From Aliagarivorans taiwanensis DSM 22990 (GTDB lineage: Bacteria > Pseudomonadota > Gammaproteobacteria > Enterobacterales > Celerinatantimonadaceae): a stretch of 64,000 nucleotides of DNA. Position numbers and translations under genes: made by a program. The notes beneath the pieces were generated by a model. That model was not told the DNA's origin and made no database searches. It worked only from the letters and a program-made list of their open reading frames with translations. The DNA is taken from positions 3,545-67,544 of the forward strand of contig NZ_AUBZ01000013.1 of the NCBI RefSeq assembly GCF_000429505.1, written 5' to 3'. Shown here piece after piece: positions 10,555 to 61,534 of this stretch. Every line of letters starts with the position of its first letter. Position 1 is the stretch's first letter.

Positions 10555-11262
10555 TTGCAATATCTAAAAATCAAAGATGCCATTGTTGAGCAGATTGAAG
10601 ACGGCATGCTCACCGCTCGCCAAAAGCTGCCCGCCGAACGTAAGTTGGCGGAGGCCTTCGATACCACCCGAGTCACCTTGCGTGAGGCCTTGTCGATGCT
10701 CGAAGCCGAAGGGCGGGTTTATCGGGAAGACCGTCGCGGTTGGTTTGTCTCACCCGAGCCGATGTCCTACGACCCAACCCAAACGCTCAACTTCACTAAT
10801 ATGGCCTTGGCGCAGCAGCGCCAGCCGCGCACCGAGCTGCTAGCCGCCAAGCAGGTATTGGCGAGCAAGCATGCAGCCAAGAAGCTCGAGCTGCCGCCGT
10901 TTTCCGATATCTACCGGATTGACCGGGTGCGTTACCTCGAAGAGCGGCCGGTGCTGTATGTGACCAACTTTATCCGCGCTGAGCTATTCCCCGATCTGCT
11001 GGAGCGCGATTGCTCACAAAACTCGCTGACCGATATCTATCGCGAGCACTATGGCGTGGAATACCAGCGCATCCGCTATCGCATTACCACCAGCTCCTTG
11101 CAGGGCGAGATCGCACAGGTGCTGCGGGCCACCGCTGGCACGCCGGCAATGGTAGTGGAGCGTATTAACTACAGCCAAACCGGCGAGCTGATCGATTGCG
11201 ATATCGAATACTGGCGTCACGATGCCATCTCCATCGACTCCATTGCTGAGTTAAGCGTTTAA
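10555..11262 (+). CDS. GntR/HutC-family transcriptional regulator (PhnR-like)
   Basis: N-terminal GntR wHTH (RKLAEAFDTTRVTLREAL) plus a C-terminal UTRA effector domain. Directly follows the permease gene. Confidence 0.8.
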   Translation: MQYLKIKDAIVEQIEDGMLTARQKLPAERKLAEAFDTTRVTLREALSMLEAEGRVYREDRRGWFVSPEPMSYDPTQTLNFTNMALAQQRQPRTELLAAKQVLASKHAAKKLELPPFSDIYRIDRVRYLEERPVLYVTNFIRAELFPDLLERDCSQNSLTDIYREHYGVEYQRIRYRITTSSLQGEIAQVLRATAGTPAMVVERINYSQTGELIDCDIEYWRHDAISIDSIAELSV

Positions 11263-55845: not shown

Positions 55846-57792
55846 TCAGGTTCTAAAGCGCGATACTAAACCGGCCAGTGCTTGAGCCAGCTGATTGAGC
55901 TCTTCAGCCTTGGTCTCCAAATCCAGCGAGCCTTCGTTGCCTTGGTTAGCACCATCATGGATATCTGTGATGTTGCGGTTAATCTCTTCTGCCACCAAGT
56001 GCTGCTCCTCGGCAGACGCCGCAATCTGGGTGGTCATATCGCGGATAGTTAGCACCGATTGCATGATGGACTCAAACACGCTGCTGGTTTGGTCGGTGGC
56101 CTGTACCGACTGCTCTGAGTGTTTGATGCTGTCGTTCAGGCTCTGCGCAACCACATCGGTTTGACTGCGCAGCTTGGTCAGTAGCTTGTCGATTTCTTCG
56201 GTGGACTCGGCAGTGCGCCCAGCCAAGGTTCTCACCTCGTCGGCGACCACCGCAAAGCCGCGGCCTTGCTCGCCAGCGCGGGCTGCCTCAATGGCGGCGT
56301 TAAGCGCCAGCAGGTTGGTTTGCTCGGCGATGCCGCGAATGGTATCGAGGATAACCGTGATGTTTTGCGAGTCTTCAGAGAGCTCTCGCATCGCTTGGTT
56401 CGATTGATTGAGGGTGGTTTCCAGCTGGTTCACCGCGCTCACGGTTTGCTGAATTAACTGGTGACCTTGCTCGACTTGTCCCTGACTGTCGTCGGCGGCT
56501 GAGGCGGCTTGACTACAGTTGTTGGCGACTTCGTTGGAGGTGGCAACCATCTCGTGGAAGGCGGTGGAGACTTGCTCTACGGCCGCTAACTGGCTGGATG
56601 CGACCCCTTCCATCTGCTCGGATAGCTGGGCAGACGTATCGGCGGAGTCATTCAGCTGGCCGCTCTTTTCTTTGATACTGTCCACCAGCTCAGCGATGGT
56701 GCCAGCAAAGCGGTTGAAGGCGCGCGCCATCTGTCCTGATTCATCCTGGCTGTCGATATTCAGGCGCTTGCTCAGGTCACCGTCGCCCGAGGCAATGTTT
56801 TCCAGGCCATCGGTGATGGTTTGCATTGGGCGGCTAATCAGTTTCATTAGCACGAAGCCGATGCCCATAAAGATTGCGACCATAATCACCGACATCATGA
56901 TGATGTTCCAGGTAATTGCATTAGCATTCTGATAAACCTCGTCGGTGGGGATCATCCCAACCATCTTCCAACCGGTTGCGGGTGAAAGGTAGACGTTGGC
57001 ATACCAACTCTCGCCACCGATCTCGGTTTCAACCAGGCCTTGCGCCTGACTGGCTATGCGTTGGTAGTCGGTAATCTCACCGAATGATTTGAAGTTATTG
57101 TCGGGGTTTGATGGGTCGGCCAGCACCGCGCCAGTGTCTTCAATCATCATCACATAGCCGCTTTGGCCGAACTTAATGCTGGCGACGATCTCGGTGAACT
57201 TCTGCAAGGATACATCGACGCCAATGGTGCCCGTGATCCCTTGCTTGGCGCTAAAACTATGCATGTAATCTAGCAAGGGGTTACCGGTTGCCAAGTCGAT
57301 GTAAGCCGGGATCCTCACCGCCCTGTTCTGGCCAATGGAAGTTTTGCACCAAGGGCGGGTGCGCGGATCGTAGTCGTCTGGCACATTGCTCTCAGGCCAG
57401 ACGATATAGCCGCCATTGCTCATCCCTAGGTACACATAGGCCAAGTCGGGGCGGGCCTCACCAAATTGACGTAGCAGGTGGTATACCTCGGCTTCGATGC
57501 CGCCGTTTTGCGATGCCCGCATCATGCCACCGGGCTTGCCCATGTAGGTGGTCACCGTATCGTCTAACTGCTTAACCACGTCGGTGCTCGCCAAAAACGC
57601 GGCGTCTTCGGCCAAGCCATTTAGATAGATGCTAATGGCGCTATCGATATGGGTCAGCTCGGCATTACTGCGTTCTACAAAATTGGCTTGGGCTTCGTTA
57701 CGAACCTTGATGACCACGGTGGTGGAAATGACCAAGATGGGAACGATGATGCTGGCGAGCAGTAGGAGGAAAAAGCGGGTGGTTATCTTCAT
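55846..57792 (-). CDS. methyl-accepting chemotaxis protein (Cache-type periplasmic sensor, HAMP, MA domain)
   Basis: Start taken as MKITTRFF. Two TM helices bracket a periplasmic domain. The conserved MA-domain core [28 protein letters not shown] is present. Confidence 0.85.
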
Positions 57793-57946
57793 GTAGTAAT
57801 GTCCATGTGGAGACAATAACTTGATGTGTATCAATAAAATGCAATTGAAGATGAAAGGCTTGCAAGGTTGGGTGTGGAATAATCAGAGCCTCGTCGTCTC
57901 GGCATGGCTGAAGAGGGACGCTATTGGAAGGGTTAATGGAGGAACG

Positions 57947-58542
57947 ATGAGCACTCGCTTATTTGTCTATGGGACTGTAGGGCGTGTATATCTTTGGTTT
58001 TTGATTTTGCAGCGCTATTAGTCCAAGCAGGCAAGGAAAAGGATGTGCAGTGTAGCAATCTACATAAACAGCCTTTGACGCAGAATGGTCGGACTAATAG
58101 CGCTGCCCTTTGGGTTCATTTAAACGGCACCTGCGCTGCGTCCTAAGTTCCTCACATAGACTCACTATGCCGCGTCACTTACTCCTTGCGCAGATACCGT
58201 TTAACTTGAACAAAATTAAACCCCAAAGATACACACGCCCTAACGCCGGGCCGGCCAAATCAACATGTATTGGCAAAGATAGAAGGCCATTGGCAGCCGG
58301 CCTGCGTCAAGGGAAGGCTCGAACATAGCGGCTGGGGGGCGGAGCTGGGTTACCCCGGTCTAGTGCTGGATGACGGCGCAGGCGAGGTTAGCGGATTGTT
58401 GTTTACCGCTGAGGGCCTAGCCGAGCAATGGCCAATGCTGGATGAGTTTGAAGGTAGCGGCTACAAGCGCTGCGTTACCCAAGCAACACTCGCCTGTGGA
58501 GAGGAGGTTGAGTGCTACGTGTATACACTCAGCCAGCCTTGA
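57947..58542 (+). pseudogene. gamma-glutamylcyclotransferase-like (GGCT/AIG2/YtfP-family) gene split by a MITE-like insertion
   Basis: N-terminal fragment MSTRLFVYGTV (57947-57979). Removing 57980..58242 gives MSTRLFVYGTVTPGRPNQHVLAKIEGHWQPACVKGRL...YPGLV...ECYVYTLSQP, which is collinear with E. coli YtfP. Confidence 0.55.
57978..58242. mobile_element. ~265 bp MITE-like non-autonomous element with 16-bp terminal inverted repeats and TA target duplication
   Basis: Left end TAGGGCGTGTATATCT (57978-57993). Right end AGATACACACGCCCTA (58227-58242), 15/16 match as an inverted repeat. Internal perfect 16-bp inverted repeat GCAGCGCTATTAGTCC / GGACTAATAGCGCTGC (58009-58024 / 58091-58106). No coding capacity. 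Splits a GGCT-family gene in a way that restores the frame if excised with one TA. Confidence 0.6.
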
Positions 58543-58607
58543 AGCACTTAACTTATAACAGCCTGACTACCCACATACTGTTGTTGTTTACACATCGCCG
58601 ATGTCAT

Positions 58608-60158
58608 TTAAACAACGCCTAACTTTTTCCCTAGTCGGTACAGGTTGCCCCGGTCCATCTGTAAGCTGCGTGCCGCTTGCGCCCATACACCGTCATGCTG
58701 GGCCAAGGCCTGTTCAATCAAGCGTTTTTGATAGTCCTCGATGGCACGCCGAAACCCCTGCTCAGGTACGCTCGCAATGCTGGCGGAAAGGCTCGGGTTT
58801 ACCTGCTGCAGACCAAGGTGGCGCTGGGTGATCACCTGCTCGCCTTGCTGGATGGCACTCAGGGCTGCGCGCATTAGGCAGTGCTCTAACTCGCGCACAT
58901 TGCCCGGCCAGCCCTGCTGCTCTAGAAGAGTAAGGCAGCGTGGCTGGATGTGTAGCTGCGGGGCATGGAATTGGGTGCGTACCTTGTCGAGTAGGTGACC
59001 TGCCAGCAGTGGAGTATCGCCATCTCGCTCGCGCAGCGGTGGGAGCTGAATGGGGAAGACATGCAAGCGGTGGTAGAGATCCGCGCGGAAGCGGCCCTGC
59101 TCAACCTCATGTTGTAGATCGCGGTTGGTGGCGGCGATAATCCGAACGTTAACGTGCTTGAGCTTGTCGGCGCCCACTCGCTGCACTTCCCCTTGCTGCA
59201 GCACCCTTAGCAGTTTGGCTTGCAGCAATAGCGGCAGTTCACCGATTTCATCGAGAAACAGGGTGCCTTCGTCTGCCAATTCAAACTTGCCCGGGCGATG
59301 GGAAGTCGCGCCAGTAAACGCGCCCTTCACGTGCCCGAACAGCTCACTTTCGGCCAGCGACGCGGGTAATGCCGCACAGTTGACTTGAATCATCGGTTTG
59401 TCGCTGCGATTAGATTGGGCATGCAGCAGATGGGCGACCAGCTCCTTGCCGGTGCCGGTCTCACCGCTAATCAGCACTGCAAAGTCTGAGGGGGCGACCG
59501 TGGCGATACTGCGCTGCAGCTGCTGCATCTGAGGGCTGTTCCCCACCAGCTCACCCTGTTGGGCGCGGGCTTGCTCTATCAGCAACTGGTTGATGCTGTG
59601 CTGATGGCGGTTGCTGCTGCGCAGGGCCTCAATCAGGGTGACATTGCGCACATTGGCCGCAGCAAGGGCGGCAATGGTCGAAATAGTCACTTCTGAGACC
59701 TGGCTAAACGCGCCCACTTCCATTGCATCGAGGGTGATCGCGCCAACCAGTTCATCTTCCACGTACAGGCTACAACCAAGACAGTCATGCACATCCAGCT
59801 CGCCATCGGGCATGCCTTCGACCAACCCATCGAAGGGGTCGGGCAGGGGAGAGTCGGCTTCAAAACGCACCGGCGCGCGACTCGCTAGGATTGCTGCCAG
59901 TCTTGGGTGGGCGGTCGGCTCAAAGCGCCGACCCAATATCGCGGGAGACAGGCCACTGATTGCCACGGGCACCAAGCTTTTGTGGGCATCCAAAATAAAC
60001 AGGGCGCTGGCGTCGCTGGGTAAGACTTGATTGAGCGAATCGAGTAGGCGCTGATAGTGCTCGCCCTGTGGCAGTTGGGCACTGAGGTCAACGGCGAGCT
60101 GCAGTAAGAGGGTGTCAATGGAGTTCGCTGGCATGGCAATACTGTTGGAAAATGACAT
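58608..60158 (-). CDS. norR: sigma54-dependent NO-responsive transcriptional regulator (GAF + AAA+ + HTH)
   Basis: Start at MSFSNS. GAF domain, sigma54-interaction motifs [14 protein letters not shown] and ESELFGH, and a C-terminal HTH. Collinear with E. coli NorR. Confidence 0.85.
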
Positions 60159-60263
60159 CAAGGTGCCGAGCATTATAGCTAGATGTTGTAAAAAACACAT
60201 CGCTGTGTATTGGTTTATCGATGGTGTTTTATCTAAACCATTGAAATATTAGAGTTTAAAACT

Positions 60264-60279
60264 TGGCCTAGATCATGCT
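60264..60279 (+). promoter_or_regulatory. sigma54 (-24/-12) promoter upstream of nnrS
   Basis: TGGCCtagatcaTGCT matches the TGGCAC-N5-TTGCW spacing (GG at -24, GC at -12). Lies in the divergent norR-nnrS intergenic region. Confidence 0.55.
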
Positions 60280-60349
60280 GTATCGAACATACTTTACACT
60301 TACTACGCTATCAGCGAGCGCGAACAAACGCATCGTTCAGGAGTCACCC

Positions 60350-61534
60350 TTGCTAAACATTGTTGATCGAAGCAACGAAGAACAGATCCCACCCTTTTTA
60401 CGCCTAGGCTTTCGGCCCTTCTTTGCCCTTGCTGGCATCTACGCGGTGCTGGCTATCGGCTTATGGCTGCATATGTGGACTGGCGGGCCACTGCCGGGGC
60501 TGCAGGTCGACCCGCTATGGTGGCATGTGCATGAGATGATCTTTGGCTTTGCCATGGCGGTTGTGGTGGGCTTTGTGCTAACCGCCGTGCAAACCTGGAC
60601 CGGACAGCCCGGCACTAAATCCTGGCGACTGTTACTATTGATTGGTCTTTGGCTCGCCCCACGCGTATTGCTGTGGCTGCCCGTGCCGCTTTGGCTGACG
60701 TCCTCCGTAGAGGGGCTGTTCTTATTGGTGGCCTGTTGGGAGGTAGGTAGCCGCGTTGTGAAGGCCAAAGGTTGGCGAAACCTGTTCTTTGTGCCGCTGT
60801 TTTTGCTGGCTATCGTGGCGAACTTTGCAAGCTATGCCGCATTGAAAGGCCTTCCACCCTTCAGTGTACAGGCGGTGTGGCAGGCAATGCTCTGGTGGTT
60901 TGCTATCCTGTTGTCGGTGATGGGAGGCCGGGTGATCCCCTTCTTCACTGCCCGGCGCTTTGATTTTGCCAAGCCTCCTGCGCTGTGGTGGTTGGAATGG
61001 GGAGCTACCCTCCCTCTTATCGCATTGCTACTGCTAAGCTTTTTTCCCTTGGTTTACCTCAATCTATCGGCCTGGCTAATGGTGGTTGCTGGCGTGTGTC
61101 AGCTGCTGCGCTGCCTGCGTTGGAAAAGTTGGCGCACCTTCTCGGAGTCTTTGGTGTGGTCGCTGCACATTGCTTACTGGTGTCTGCCACTGAGCCTGCT
61201 GGTACGGGGGCTGAGTAGCAATGCCTTTGTGGCCCATAGCTTTATCCACCTGTTTGCCATCGGCGCCTTGGGTGGGCTGATCCTAGCGATGATGGCGCGG
61301 GTGAGCATGGGGCATACCGGGCGTGAGATCTACAAGGGCCCCGTGATGTGGCCAGCCTATGCTGCCTTGTTTGCCGCGGCCGCGATTCGTACTGTAGGCG
61401 TTGCGCTAATGCCTGCTGCGCTGGTCACGCTGGTGCAAGTTGCAGGGGTTCTATGGATGTTTGCCTTTATCTGGTTTGTCTGGCGCTTTGTTCCGATGCT
61501 GGGTCAGCCGCGGGTGGATGGTCACCCGGGCTAG
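60350..61534 (+). CDS. nnrS: NnrS-family heme-copper membrane protein (NO stress response)
   Basis: Probable TTG start at 60350 preceded by AGGAG. Conserved FLRLGFRPFF N-terminal motif and about 12 TM helices. The ORF-track start at 60275 would lie inside the promoter. Confidence 0.7.
   Translation: MLNIVDRSNEEQIPPFLRLGFRPFFALAGIYAVLAIGLWLHMWTGGPLPGLQVDPLWWHVHEMIFGFAMAVVVGFVLTAVQTWTGQPGTKSWRLLLLIGLWLAPRVLLWLPVPLWLTSSVEGLFLLVACWEVGSRVVKAKGWRNLFFVPLFLLAIVANFASYAALKGLPPFSVQAVWQAMLWWFAILLSVMGGRVIPFFTARRFDFAKPPALWWLEWGATLPLIALLLLSFFPLVYLNLSAWLMVVAGVCQLLRCLRWKSWRTFSESLVWSLHIAYWCLPLSLLVRGLSSNAFVAHSFIHLFAIGALGGLILAMMARVSMGHTGREIYKGPVMWPAYAALFAAAAIRTVGVALMPAALVTLVQVAGVLWMFAFIWFVWRFVPMLGQPRVDGHPG

What the first reader, a model, noticed from the sequence alone, without database searches (positions are those of the whole stretch)
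57947..58542. MITE-like insertion (TIR TAGGGCGTGTRTATCT, TA duplication, internal perfect 16-bp hairpin) splitting a GGCT/AIG2-family gene.
Removing 57980..58242 (keeping one TA) fuses MSTRLFVYGTV to TPGRPNQHVLAKIEGHWQ...YPGLV...ECYVYTL in frame. The result is a ~110-aa protein collinear with the gamma-glutamyl(amine) cyclotransferase-like YtfP fold. The inserted DNA has imperfect 16-bp terminal inverted repeats (15/16), a TA-TA flank typical of IS630/Tc1-mariner-derived MITEs, a perfect 16-bp internal inverted repeat separated by 66 bp, and no ORF. This looks like a small non-autonomous element that may be repeated elsewhere in the genome, and the insertion seems relatively recent.
Basis: seen in the sequence. 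Interest (0 to 1): 0.65.

Follow-up and report, generated by a model that had tools for sequence, protein, structure and literature searches.

The report
IS5-type MITE splitting a GGACT gene
A 263-bp non-coding jumping element has landed inside a small gamma-glutamylcyclotransferase-like gene of the marine bacterium Aliagarivorans taiwanensis and broken it. This is an ordinary event, but the element belongs to a widespread, unusually well-folded family whose ends match an IS5-family insertion sequence rather than IS630.

Summary
Window 57980-58242 is a non-coding insert of net 263 bp. It has 32-nt imperfect terminal inverted repeats, TA on both sides and a Y-shaped fold (z about -10). Removing it restores a 110-aa GGACT/AIG2 protein. 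Intact orthologues in the same gene order exist in a close relative (95% identical) and in A. marinus, whose empty site reads T-TA-G.

The insert is one copy of a multi-copy family of about 268 nt. It occurs in marine Gammaproteobacteria: Pseudoalteromonas chromids (up to 22 places per replicon), Vibrio, Catenovulum, an Alteromonadaceae MAG and many marine metagenome contigs. A second filled/empty pair in Pseudoalteromonas confirms TA duplication.

The IS630 attribution is not supported. The family's termini (TA-GGGCGTGTTGATCTTTG) match the ends of an 877-884-bp IS5-family IS with a 253-aa transposase (DUF4096 + DDE_Tnp_1, NCBIfam transpos_IS5_3). I saw these ends in nine IS copies from five sources, eight of them flanked by TA on both sides.

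The family's interior fold is conserved by compensatory changes (51 of 72 pairs). It shows no consistent strand bias, no gene-orientation bias and no Rfam match.

Verdict: a recent gene-disrupting insertion of an apparently undescribed IS5-related MITE family. Moderate interest.

The parts
57947..57979 (+). 5' fragment of the split GGACT/AIG2-family gene (codons 1-11, MSTRLFVYGTV). Read-through into the element stops after 24 codons, at 58021.
57978..57979 (.). Left copy of the duplicated TA target.
   Evidence: The fused gene is collinear and equal in length with the orthologues only if one TA is kept. The A. marinus empty site reads T-TA-G.
57980..58240 (+). Body of the MITE (261 nt, GGGCGTGT...ACACGCCC). 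The + strand is the orientation of the family alignment.
   Evidence: nhmmer with the family profile: 188 bits on +, 74 bits on -. Alignments.
57980..58009 (.). Left terminal inverted repeat.
   Evidence: arm pair I1. Termini match IS5-family IS ends.
58009..58106 (.). Internal hairpin 1.
   Evidence: Covariation in family helices 3-6.
58106..58114 (.). Mini-hairpin CCC-TTT-GGG at the junction of the arms. It covaries in the family (CCC/GGG, CTC/GAG, TCC/GGA).
   Evidence: helix 7
58114..58211 (.). Internal hairpin 2 (58114-58136 / 58188-58211, with a distal stem at 58144-58181).
   Evidence: (I2). Family helices 8-10.
58211..58240 (.). Right terminal inverted repeat.
58241..58242 (.). Right copy of the duplicated TA.
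58243..58542 (+). 3' fragment of the split GGACT gene (codons 12-110 plus stop). It has no start of its own apart from an internal TTG at 58270, and it lacks the N-terminal YGTL motif.

Best explanation
Window 57980-58242 is one copy of a non-autonomous DNA transposon (MITE) family of about 268 nt. It inserted at a TA inside codons 11-12 of a 110-codon GGACT/AIG2-type gene of Aliagarivorans taiwanensis. The insertion duplicated the TA and inactivated the gene: the N-terminal 11 codons now run into a stop within the element, and the remaining 99 codons have lost their start and the conserved YGTL motif.

The family is mobilised in trans by the DDE transposase of an IS5-family insertion sequence of about 880 bp (253 aa, DUF4096 + DDE_Tnp_1). 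That IS has the same terminal sequence (TA-GGGCGTGTTGATCTTTG) and the same TA flanks. It resembles the IS427 group in size, IR length and 2-bp duplication. Target choice is Y-TA-R, which often coincides with stop codons, so most copies lie just past gene ends.

Shown here: the anatomy, the gene split, two empty sites, the multi-copy family, identity of the ends with the IS, and conservation of the fold.

Inferred: that this transposase moves the element; that it was available to A. taiwanensis; and that the conserved fold helps transposition or persistence, for example by bringing the two ends together in single-stranded DNA or by acting as a harmless or stabilising 3' structure in transcripts.
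For: Anatomy and chance.

Gene restoration: Pfam GGACT at 3.8e-16. 210 homologues were found; the six sequences I read all have YGTLAPG at the insertion point.

Empty sites in the same gene order (chemotaxis receptor, GGACT, sigma-54 regulator, NnrS):
- L002, a 95%-identical orthologue.
- L073, A. marinus, which reads ACA T-TA-G CG.

Net insert is 263 bp, i.e. 265 minus one TA.

Recency: dN 0.020, dS 0.176, and no frameshift or stop in either half.

Family:
- 29 inverted end pairs were found in metagenome and MAG loci. One (L060, 1180 nt) is a chance pair, leaving 28 two-ended copies. Most are 266-269 nt.
- Many further ends sit at contig ends.
- There are 84 places in 20 replicons of Pseudoalteromonas, Vibrio and Catenovulum, up to 22 per replicon, and nearly all are unannotated.

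Second filled/empty pair, with TA duplication inside a TAA stop codon.

Target: the base before TA is Y in 25/26 listed copies and the base after is R in 25/26.

Partner IS:
- L074 3799-4680 lies 1 kb from a MITE copy on the same replicon.
- Pfam and NCBIfam place its transposase in the IS5 family.
- Eight further IS copies from four sources have ends GGGCGTGTTGATCTTTG (GAGCGTG... in Alishewanella). Thalassomonas haliotis has four copies at different sites.
- Captured IS427-group elements are 832-865 bp with IRs of 13-21 bp. Eleven of the twelve listed have 2-bp direct repeats; one has 4 bp (PMC3281130, Table 2).

Fold: 95% of cells are paired against 36-45% when partners are slid. 51 of 72 pairs have compensatory changes, and 0/500 shuffles reach the observed values.
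Against: - No copy of the IS5-family transposase lies in the 64-kb window or in the two orthologous loci. Its presence elsewhere in A. taiwanensis was not tested.
- The window copy's termini differ from the IS consensus at 2 of the first 18 element positions (AT and GT instead of TG).
- Similarity between the IS and the MITE is limited to about 20-27 terminal nt. The interior is therefore not a deletion derivative of the IS.
- Mobilisation was not demonstrated.
- The two bases that directly flank the duplicated TA in the window (G and A) differ from both relatives and break the Y-TA-R rule on the left. Three of about six window-specific substitutions in the gene cluster at the junction. This is unexplained.
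- The IS427-group assignment rests on size, IR length and duplication length only.
Confidence: 0.85

Rival explanations
1. The element is an IS630/Tc1-mariner-derived MITE. On this view an IS630-family transposase, which duplicates TA and prefers CTAG, moves it.
For: TA on both sides of essentially every copy, and a Y-TA-R flank preference that resembles the CTAG preference of IS630 (the CTAG preference is from my own knowledge).
Against: - IS630 ends (CTAAATAGCTGCGCGGAATA) do not match the element's termini.
- The TIR pattern is absent from a Vibrio IS630-family locus.
- No IS630-like ORF lies in the roughly 570 kb of loci held around copies at that point.
- Nine IS5-family IS copies carry the element's terminal 17-21 nt and TA flanks.
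- Captured IS427-group IS5 elements mostly make 2-bp duplications too (PMC3281130).
Confidence: 0.04
2. The family is primarily a mobile structured nucleic-acid module. On this view the four-arm fold is a selected RNA (or single-stranded DNA) with a function of its own, such as transcript stabilisation, termination or protein binding. The TIRs would merely be its vehicle. This does not exclude the main explanation.
For: - Very strong compensatory evolution in both internal arms and in the mini-hairpin.
- Conserved unpaired motifs (CAAGGC, AACGCAG, CTCTTTGT) make copies orientable. The correct orientation scores about 190-240 bits and the reverse orientation about 40-90.
- Many copies lie 5-45 nt past a stop codon or between convergent genes.
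Against: - No Rfam family matches at E up to 1 in the window or up to 0.5 in nine other loci.
- G-U against A-C counts show no consistent strand. Common pairs give 31 against 21. Hairpin 1 favours + (16:2) and hairpin 2 slightly favours - (10:14). The alifold energy is a little better on the - strand.
- Orientation relative to the upstream gene is 12 against 6 unique loci, which is not significant.
- No promoter-like or terminator-like site lies in the window copy.
- The window copy sits inside a gene, where such a function is irrelevant.
Confidence: 0.15
3. The insert is an intron-like element removed at the RNA level, so the GGACT gene remains functional.
For: Both gene halves are intact and in frame once 263 nt are removed.
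Against: - No group I or group II intron or ribozyme match in Rfam.
- The other copies examined are intergenic or abut stop codons, and they occur in both orientations.
- The element has DNA-transposon hallmarks: TIRs, a TA duplication, and an IS with the same ends.
Confidence: 0.01

Closest known systems
IS5-family insertion sequences of the IS427-like type (for example the elements NCBI labels 'IS5-like element ISSod6 family' in Shewanella, or IS1248 and ISPaes1 of Paracoccus)
   Same: The terminal sequence is the same: TA-GGGCGTGTTGATCTTTG is shared with nine IS copies examined here. Both have TA on each side. The partner's size (877-884 bp), IR length (about 20 bp) and 2-bp duplication match published IS427-group elements.
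   Different: The window element is 263 bp and has no transposase. Its interior is unrelated to the IS (only about 20-27 terminal nt align). The partner transposase is a single ORF, not the two-ORF frameshift arrangement usual in the IS427 group.
Bacterial TA-duplicating MITEs linked to IS630 (Correia/NEMIS of Neisseria, RUP of Streptococcus pneumoniae, Nezha of cyanobacteria); comparison from my own knowledge
   Same: Small, non-coding, with TIRs and a TA duplication. They have fold-back potential and are mostly intergenic, with occasional gene disruption.
   Different: The ends match an IS5-family IS, not an IS630-family IS. The element is longer (about 268 nt against about 100-160 nt). It has two separate internal arms whose pairing is kept by compensatory change.
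Tourist MITEs and PIF/Harbinger transposons of eukaryotes (relatives of IS5); comparison from my own knowledge
   Same: A short TIR element is mobilised by an IS5-related DDE transposase. It inserts at a short A/T-rich palindromic target and shares only its ends with the autonomous partner.
   Different: Tourist elements make a 3-bp TWA duplication and have eukaryotic hosts. They have no conserved multi-arm interior.
ERIC/IRU and REP/BIME intergenic repeats of Enterobacteria; comparison from my own knowledge
   Same: Dispersed, structured, mostly intergenic or 3'-UTR repeats that fold in either orientation.
   Different: No sequence similarity. REP elements lack a TA duplication and are linked to RAYT (HUH) transposases. 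No Rfam or other named family matched here.

Membership tests
MITE (non-autonomous TIR transposon) | Short length with no coding capacity | tested here: met
   263 bp net. No credible ORF lies in the insert. No transposase lies inside any of the 28 two-ended copies.
MITE (non-autonomous TIR transposon) | Terminal inverted repeats | tested here: met
   32 nt at 88% in the window. The terminal 18 nt are conserved across the family.
MITE (non-autonomous TIR transposon) | Target-site duplication shown by filled and empty sites | tested here: met
   First pair: window against A. marinus (T-TA-G) and L002; lengths agree only with one TA kept. Second pair: Pseudoalteromonas HL-AS2 against Bsw20308, acat-TAA-agg against acat-TA[element]TA-aag. 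Caveat: in the window the bases next to TA differ from the relatives.
MITE (non-autonomous TIR transposon) | Multiple dispersed copies | tested here: met
   84 places in 20 replicons, up to 22 per replicon. There are 28 two-ended copies plus many ends at contig ends in metagenome loci. Only one copy lies in this 64-kb window; the copy number in A. taiwanensis was not tested.
MITE (non-autonomous TIR transposon) | An autonomous element with matching ends | tested here: met
   IS5-family IS at L074 3799-4680, and L075-L082, with ends TA-GGGCGTGTTGATCTTTG.
IS630/Tc1-mariner-derived MITE | TA duplication | tested here: met
   Not diagnostic: IS427-group IS5 elements also make 2-bp duplications.
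IS630/Tc1-mariner-derived MITE | TIRs matching those of an IS630-family transposase gene carrier | tested here: not met
   IS630 ends do not match. The pattern is absent from a Vibrio IS630-family locus. No IS630-like ORF lies near any copy. tblastn lists of IS630-family hits named none of the MITE-bearing Pseudoalteromonas replicons.
IS5-family (IS427-like) derivative | Ends identical to those of an IS whose transposase is IS5 family | tested here: met
   Transposase: Pfam DUF4096 + DDE_Tnp_1; NCBIfam NF033580 transpos_IS5_3, 258.5 bits against a cut-off of 110. Ends compared.
IS5-family (IS427-like) derivative | Same duplication and target as the IS | tested here: met
   Eight of nine IS copies have TA on both sides. 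The four T. haliotis copies have C/T before TA and G after it.
IS5-family (IS427-like) derivative | IS and MITE present in the same genome | tested here: inconclusive
   Met for the Pseudoalteromonas sp. HL-AS2 chromid, where they lie 1 kb apart. Not tested for A. taiwanensis; no IS lies in the window.
IS5-family (IS427-like) derivative | Mobilisation by that transposase | not testable with these tools
   Needs a transposition assay.
IS5-family (IS427-like) derivative | Assignment of the partner to the IS427 group by transposase phylogeny | not tested
   Only size, IR length and 2-bp duplication were compared with published IS427-group elements.
GGACT/AIG2 (gamma-glutamylcyclotransferase-like, YtfP-type) gene | Full-length match to the family profile and to orthologues once the insert is removed | tested here: met
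   PF06094 at E = 3.8e-16. 210 homologues, the best 95% identical over 100% of the length. Gene order is conserved.
Curated structured RNA family (Rfam 15) | Covariance-model match | tested here: not met
   No match at E up to 1 in the window region, or up to 0.5 in nine loci with copies.

The most novel reading that the evidence does not exclude
The conserved four-arm fold (terminal stem, two long arms and a covarying 3-bp mini-hairpin, with invariant internal-loop motifs) is not a by-product. It is a selected single-stranded RNA or DNA device that the IS5-type ends carry around marine gammaproteobacterial genomes. It could be a portable 3'-end stabiliser or terminator, or a structure that the transposition machinery itself needs. 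If so, this would be a bacterial MITE family under structural selection comparable to that on a non-coding RNA gene.
Probability: 0.2. Interest if true: 0.6.

Novelty: new member of a known kind. Interest (0 to 1): 0.35.

Why it matters
For this genome, the finding shows that the two small ORFs at 57947 and 58270 are halves of one recently killed GGACT gene. They should be annotated as a pseudogene plus a mobile element.

More generally, it defines a widespread MITE family in Alteromonadales and Vibrionales, and on a Methylophaga plasmid. I found it unannotated wherever I looked. It breaks metagenome assemblies, often inserts into stop codons, and can be tied to a specific IS5-family transposase. 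That gives a bacterial counterpart to the Tourist and PIF/Harbinger relationship.

The strong compensatory evolution of its interior makes it a good test case for a general question. Are MITE folds selected, for transposition or for an effect on transcripts, or are they only a consequence of palindromic origin?

Tried and rejected
**Collection scans**
- The genome-contig scan with TAGGGCGTGTRTATCTTTGG found only one locus. The pattern was too narrow: most family members have T, not R, at position 11.
- Viral-contig scans gave only chance hits.

**Literature**
- Searches by sequence string and by 'MITE' plus Alteromonas or Pseudoalteromonas found no description of the family.

**Search for a partner through IS630**
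- tblastn of IS630 and of a Vibrio IS630-family transposase against the loci and against plasmids did not lead to a partner.
- A BLAST of the TIR alone against plasmids returned only MITE-bearing replicons and chance hits.
- Truncated copies on the pMEGA, KG3 and Methylophaga plasmids are fragments, not IS ends.
- Single ends in L051 and L054 are solo remnants next to ordinary genes.
- L060 is a chance pair beside a serine recombinase.
- The recurrent 18-mer next to cas3 is not an element.

**Models rejected**
- A 4-bp CTAG duplication is rejected by L081 (TTAG against CTAG) and by MITE copies such as L001 (TTAG against CTAA).

**Tests that came out negative**
- The strand-of-function test by G-U against A-C counts showed no consistent bias.
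- The gene-orientation test showed no significant bias.
- The promoter and terminator scan found nothing in the element.

**Not pursued**
- The 607-nt variant did not resolve into a nested element.
- I did not try to build a covariance model; at about 270 positions I expected the calibration-time limit to refuse it. nhmmer was used instead.

Full report
**1. Observation**

- ATG at 57947 opens MSTRLFVYGTV.
- From 57978 the sequence reads TA-GGGCGTGTATATCT..., and at 58227-58242 it reads ...AGATACACACGCCC-TA.
- The inverted repeat extends to 32 nt at 88% (57978-58009 / 58211-58242).
- The 20-nt terminal pattern occurs nowhere else in the 64-kb window. Shuffles give a mean of 0.01.
- The perfect 16-bp internal repeat (58009-58024 / 58091-58106) is there, as part of a 21-nt arm pair.

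The 265 nt fold into a terminal stem carrying two long arms. The z-score is about -10 as DNA or as RNA, on either strand. Rfam finds nothing here.

**2. The split gene**

Joining 57947-57979 to 58243-58542 gives a 110-aa protein. It matches Pfam GGACT (PF06094) at 3.8e-16 over nearly its whole length.

A search of the large protein collection gave 210 homologues. The best is 95% identical over 100% of the length and is itself 110 aa. The six homologue sequences I read carry YGTLAPG at the point of insertion.

Two intact orthologous genes were fetched:
- The 95%-identical gene lies on a Logan contig (L002).
- The A. marinus gene lies in L073.

Both sit in the same gene order as the window: chemotaxis receptor, GGACT, sigma-54 regulator, NnrS. 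Exact-sequence look-ups of neighbouring window proteins identify the window as Aliagarivorans taiwanensis.

The fused window gene is collinear with both orthologues, codon for codon, only if exactly one TA is kept. The net insertion is therefore 263 bp. The A. marinus empty site reads ACA T-TA-G CG.

Against L002, dN is 0.020 and dS is 0.176, and neither half has a stop or frameshift. The gene was therefore under purifying selection for most of the time since the split. The insertion is recent on that scale.

After the insertion, the 5' fragment reads into the element and stops after 24 codons. The 3' fragment has no proper start and lacks the YGTL motif. The gene is most likely dead; this last step is an inference.

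**3. A family, not a one-off**

My first genome-collection scan used too narrow a pattern and returned one locus, in an Alteromonadaceae MAG (L001). That locus already showed the same architecture with different arm sequences.

A metagenome scan with TAGGGCGTGTNTATCTTT returned 61 loci.
- 29 inverted end pairs were found. One (L060, 1180 nt) is a chance pair beside a serine recombinase. That leaves 28 two-ended copies.
- Most are 266-269 nt. There are longer variants (282-358 nt and about 607 nt) and shorter ones (174 and 128 nt).
- Many further ends sit exactly at contig ends, as expected for a repeat that breaks assemblies.
- About a quarter of the loci were chance hits.

BLAST against the plasmid and chromid collection found 84 places in 20 replicons of Pseudoalteromonas, Vibrio and Catenovulum. 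One 906-kb replicon has up to 22 places, and almost all places have no annotated feature underneath. A fragment lies on a Methylophaga IncP plasmid.

The window itself has one copy.

**4. Target and duplication**

In the 26 listed copies the base before the left TA is C or T in 25. The base after the right TA is G or A in 25. The target is therefore Y-TA-R.

A second filled/empty pair comes from Pseudoalteromonas:
- In strain Bsw20308 an oxidoreductase gene ends ...acat-TAA-agg.
- In strain HL-AS2 the same gene reads ...acat-TA[element]TA-aag.

The TA of the stop codon was duplicated, and the gene now stops at TA plus the first G of the element.

A 4-bp CTAG duplication model fails on several copies.

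**5. The partner is IS5 family, not IS630**

Looking for an IS630 partner led nowhere.
- IS630 ends are unrelated to the element's termini.
- A Vibrio IS630-family locus lacks the pattern.
- No IS630-like ORF lies near any copy.

On the HL-AS2 chromid, 1 kb from a MITE copy, lies an annotated IS5-family transposase gene. The 882-bp unit around it (L074 3799-4680) ends in TA-GGGGCTGTTGATCTTTGTAGTA and TA-GGGCGTGTTGATCTTTGTGGTA. The 253-aa protein has DUF4096 and DDE_Tnp_1 domains. It scores 258.5 bits on NCBIfam transpos_IS5_3, whose cut-off is 110.

Homologues at 64-86% identity are common in marine Gammaproteobacteria. Some Shewanella members are labelled 'IS5-like element ISSod6 family'.

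Eight further copies were fetched from four sources. These include four copies at different sites in Thalassomonas haliotis. All are 877-884 bp with ends GGGCGTGTTGATCTTTG (GAGCGTG... in Alishewanella). All but one end are flanked by TA, with C/T before and G after.

The MITE consensus end is TA-GGGCGTGTT(T/G)ATCTTTG. Several MITE copies share 19-21 terminal nt with the IS. Similarity stops after about 20-27 nt.

Experimentally captured IS427-group IS5 elements of Paracoccus are 832-865 bp, with IRs of 13-21 bp. Eleven of the twelve listed have 2-bp direct repeats; one has 4 bp (PMC3281130, Table 2). This fits the partner. The group assignment remains an inference from those three features.

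The window copy differs from the IS consensus at 2 of the first 18 element positions.

**6. The conserved fold**

An alignment of 18 copies (17 distinct) can be oriented unambiguously. The family profile scores about 190-240 bits in one orientation and about 40-90 in the other.

RNAalifold predicts a terminal stem, hairpin 1, a 3-bp mini-hairpin and hairpin 2. Of 72 pairs, 51 show compensatory double changes.

Counting on that structure gives the following:
- 95% of cells are paired, against 36-45% when partners are slid by 1-3 columns.
- The covariation score is 0.61 against about 0.1 for the slid versions.
- None of 500 shuffles reaches the observed values.

The structure was derived from these same sequences, which inflates the contrast. 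Even so, the number of pair types per position is large.

I could not assign a strand.
- On pairs predicted for both strands, G-U and A-C cells number 31 and 21.
- Hairpin 1 leans to the + orientation and hairpin 2 to the other.
- The - strand has the slightly better consensus energy.

Orientation relative to the upstream gene is 12 against 6 unique loci. No Rfam family matches any copy tested. The window copy has no promoter-like or terminator-like site.

The fold is therefore selected or maintained. Whether that happens at the DNA level (for example by bringing the ends together in single-stranded DNA) or at the RNA level (3'-UTR structure) is open.

**7. Unexplained detail**

In the window the bases directly flanking the duplicated TA are G (left) and A (right). 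A. marinus has T and G, and L002 has C and G. These changes turn the conserved Leu-Ala into Val-Thr.

About six substitutions are specific to the window lineage in the 333-nt gene. Three of them (nt 30, 31, 34) lie within 3 nt of the TA at nt 32-33. The left G is the only non-pyrimidine among the 26 listed copies.

One possibility is that a rare V-T variant offered the TA. Another is that these bases changed with or after the insertion. I cannot tell which.

**8. Verdict**

The superfamily assignment is wrong. The ends belong to an IS5-family, IS427-like IS.

A MITE disrupting a small gene is ordinary biology. The family itself seems undescribed in the literature I could search, and it is unannotated in the records I saw. 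It is also unusually well structured. I rate it a new member of a known kind, of moderate interest.

Noticed in passing
L074 2501-2768 (Pseudoalteromonas sp. HL-AS2, NZ_CP133572.1) against L083 about 2002-2004 (strain Bsw20308): A family copy inserted into the TA of the TAA stop codon of an NAD(P)/FAD oxidoreductase. The gene now ends at TA plus the first G of the element. Several metagenome copies also lie 5-6 nt from, or overlap by 2 nt, the end of a neighbouring ORF. The Y-TA-R target seems often to be a stop codon.
   Followed up: partly
window 57975-57979 and 58243 (nt 30, 31 and 34 of the fused gene): Three of about six window-lineage substitutions in the split gene lie within 3 nt of the duplicated TA. 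They change the conserved Leu-Ala to Val-Thr. The left flanking base G is the only non-pyrimidine among the 26 listed copies.
   Followed up: partly
L052 4739-5030 against L012 4054-4321 (same locus in two metagenomes): The L052 copy carries a four-fold tandem expansion of GGCGGAAAG in the loop region of hairpin 1 (292 nt against 268 nt). This is a small minisatellite inside the element.
   Followed up: no
L010 8592-9198, L031 2234-2840, L059 684-1289; L009 8306-8640, L055 2572-2906, L008 753-1110: These are long variants of the element, of 606-607 nt and 335-358 nt, with extra internal sequence between recognisable family segments. The 607-nt form did not resolve into a simple nested insertion.
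   Followed up: partly
L013 3272, L025 7883, L029 10195, L039 57, L050 7224: The 18-nt terminal motif, followed by TTTTTTCTTTATTGTTTCTAAATCCGC, recurs about 110 nt upstream of a cas3 gene in five metagenome contigs. It has no second end and none of the family interior. It could be a solo remnant or a coincidence conserved by synteny.
   Followed up: no
L068 20001-20268 (Bsw20308) against NZ_CP133570.1 377575-378450 (HL-AS1): Homology between two related Pseudoalteromonas chromids runs through the left flank and a shared element copy. It stops within a few bases of the element's right end, so the copy sits at a synteny breakpoint.
   Followed up: no
L001 1586-1629; L051 about 800-824; L054 about 11042-11069; L063 13715-13806: These are solo or truncated ends of the family (24-90 nt) next to ordinary genes. 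They suggest decay or partial deletion of old copies.
   Followed up: partly
window 55846-61534: The split GGACT gene lies between a methyl-accepting chemotaxis protein gene (55846-57834, - strand) and a GAF/sigma-54 activator (58608-60200, - strand), which is followed by a gene at 60275-61534. In the two orthologous loci that position holds NnrS. The order is conserved in A. marinus and in the Logan relative.
   Followed up: partly
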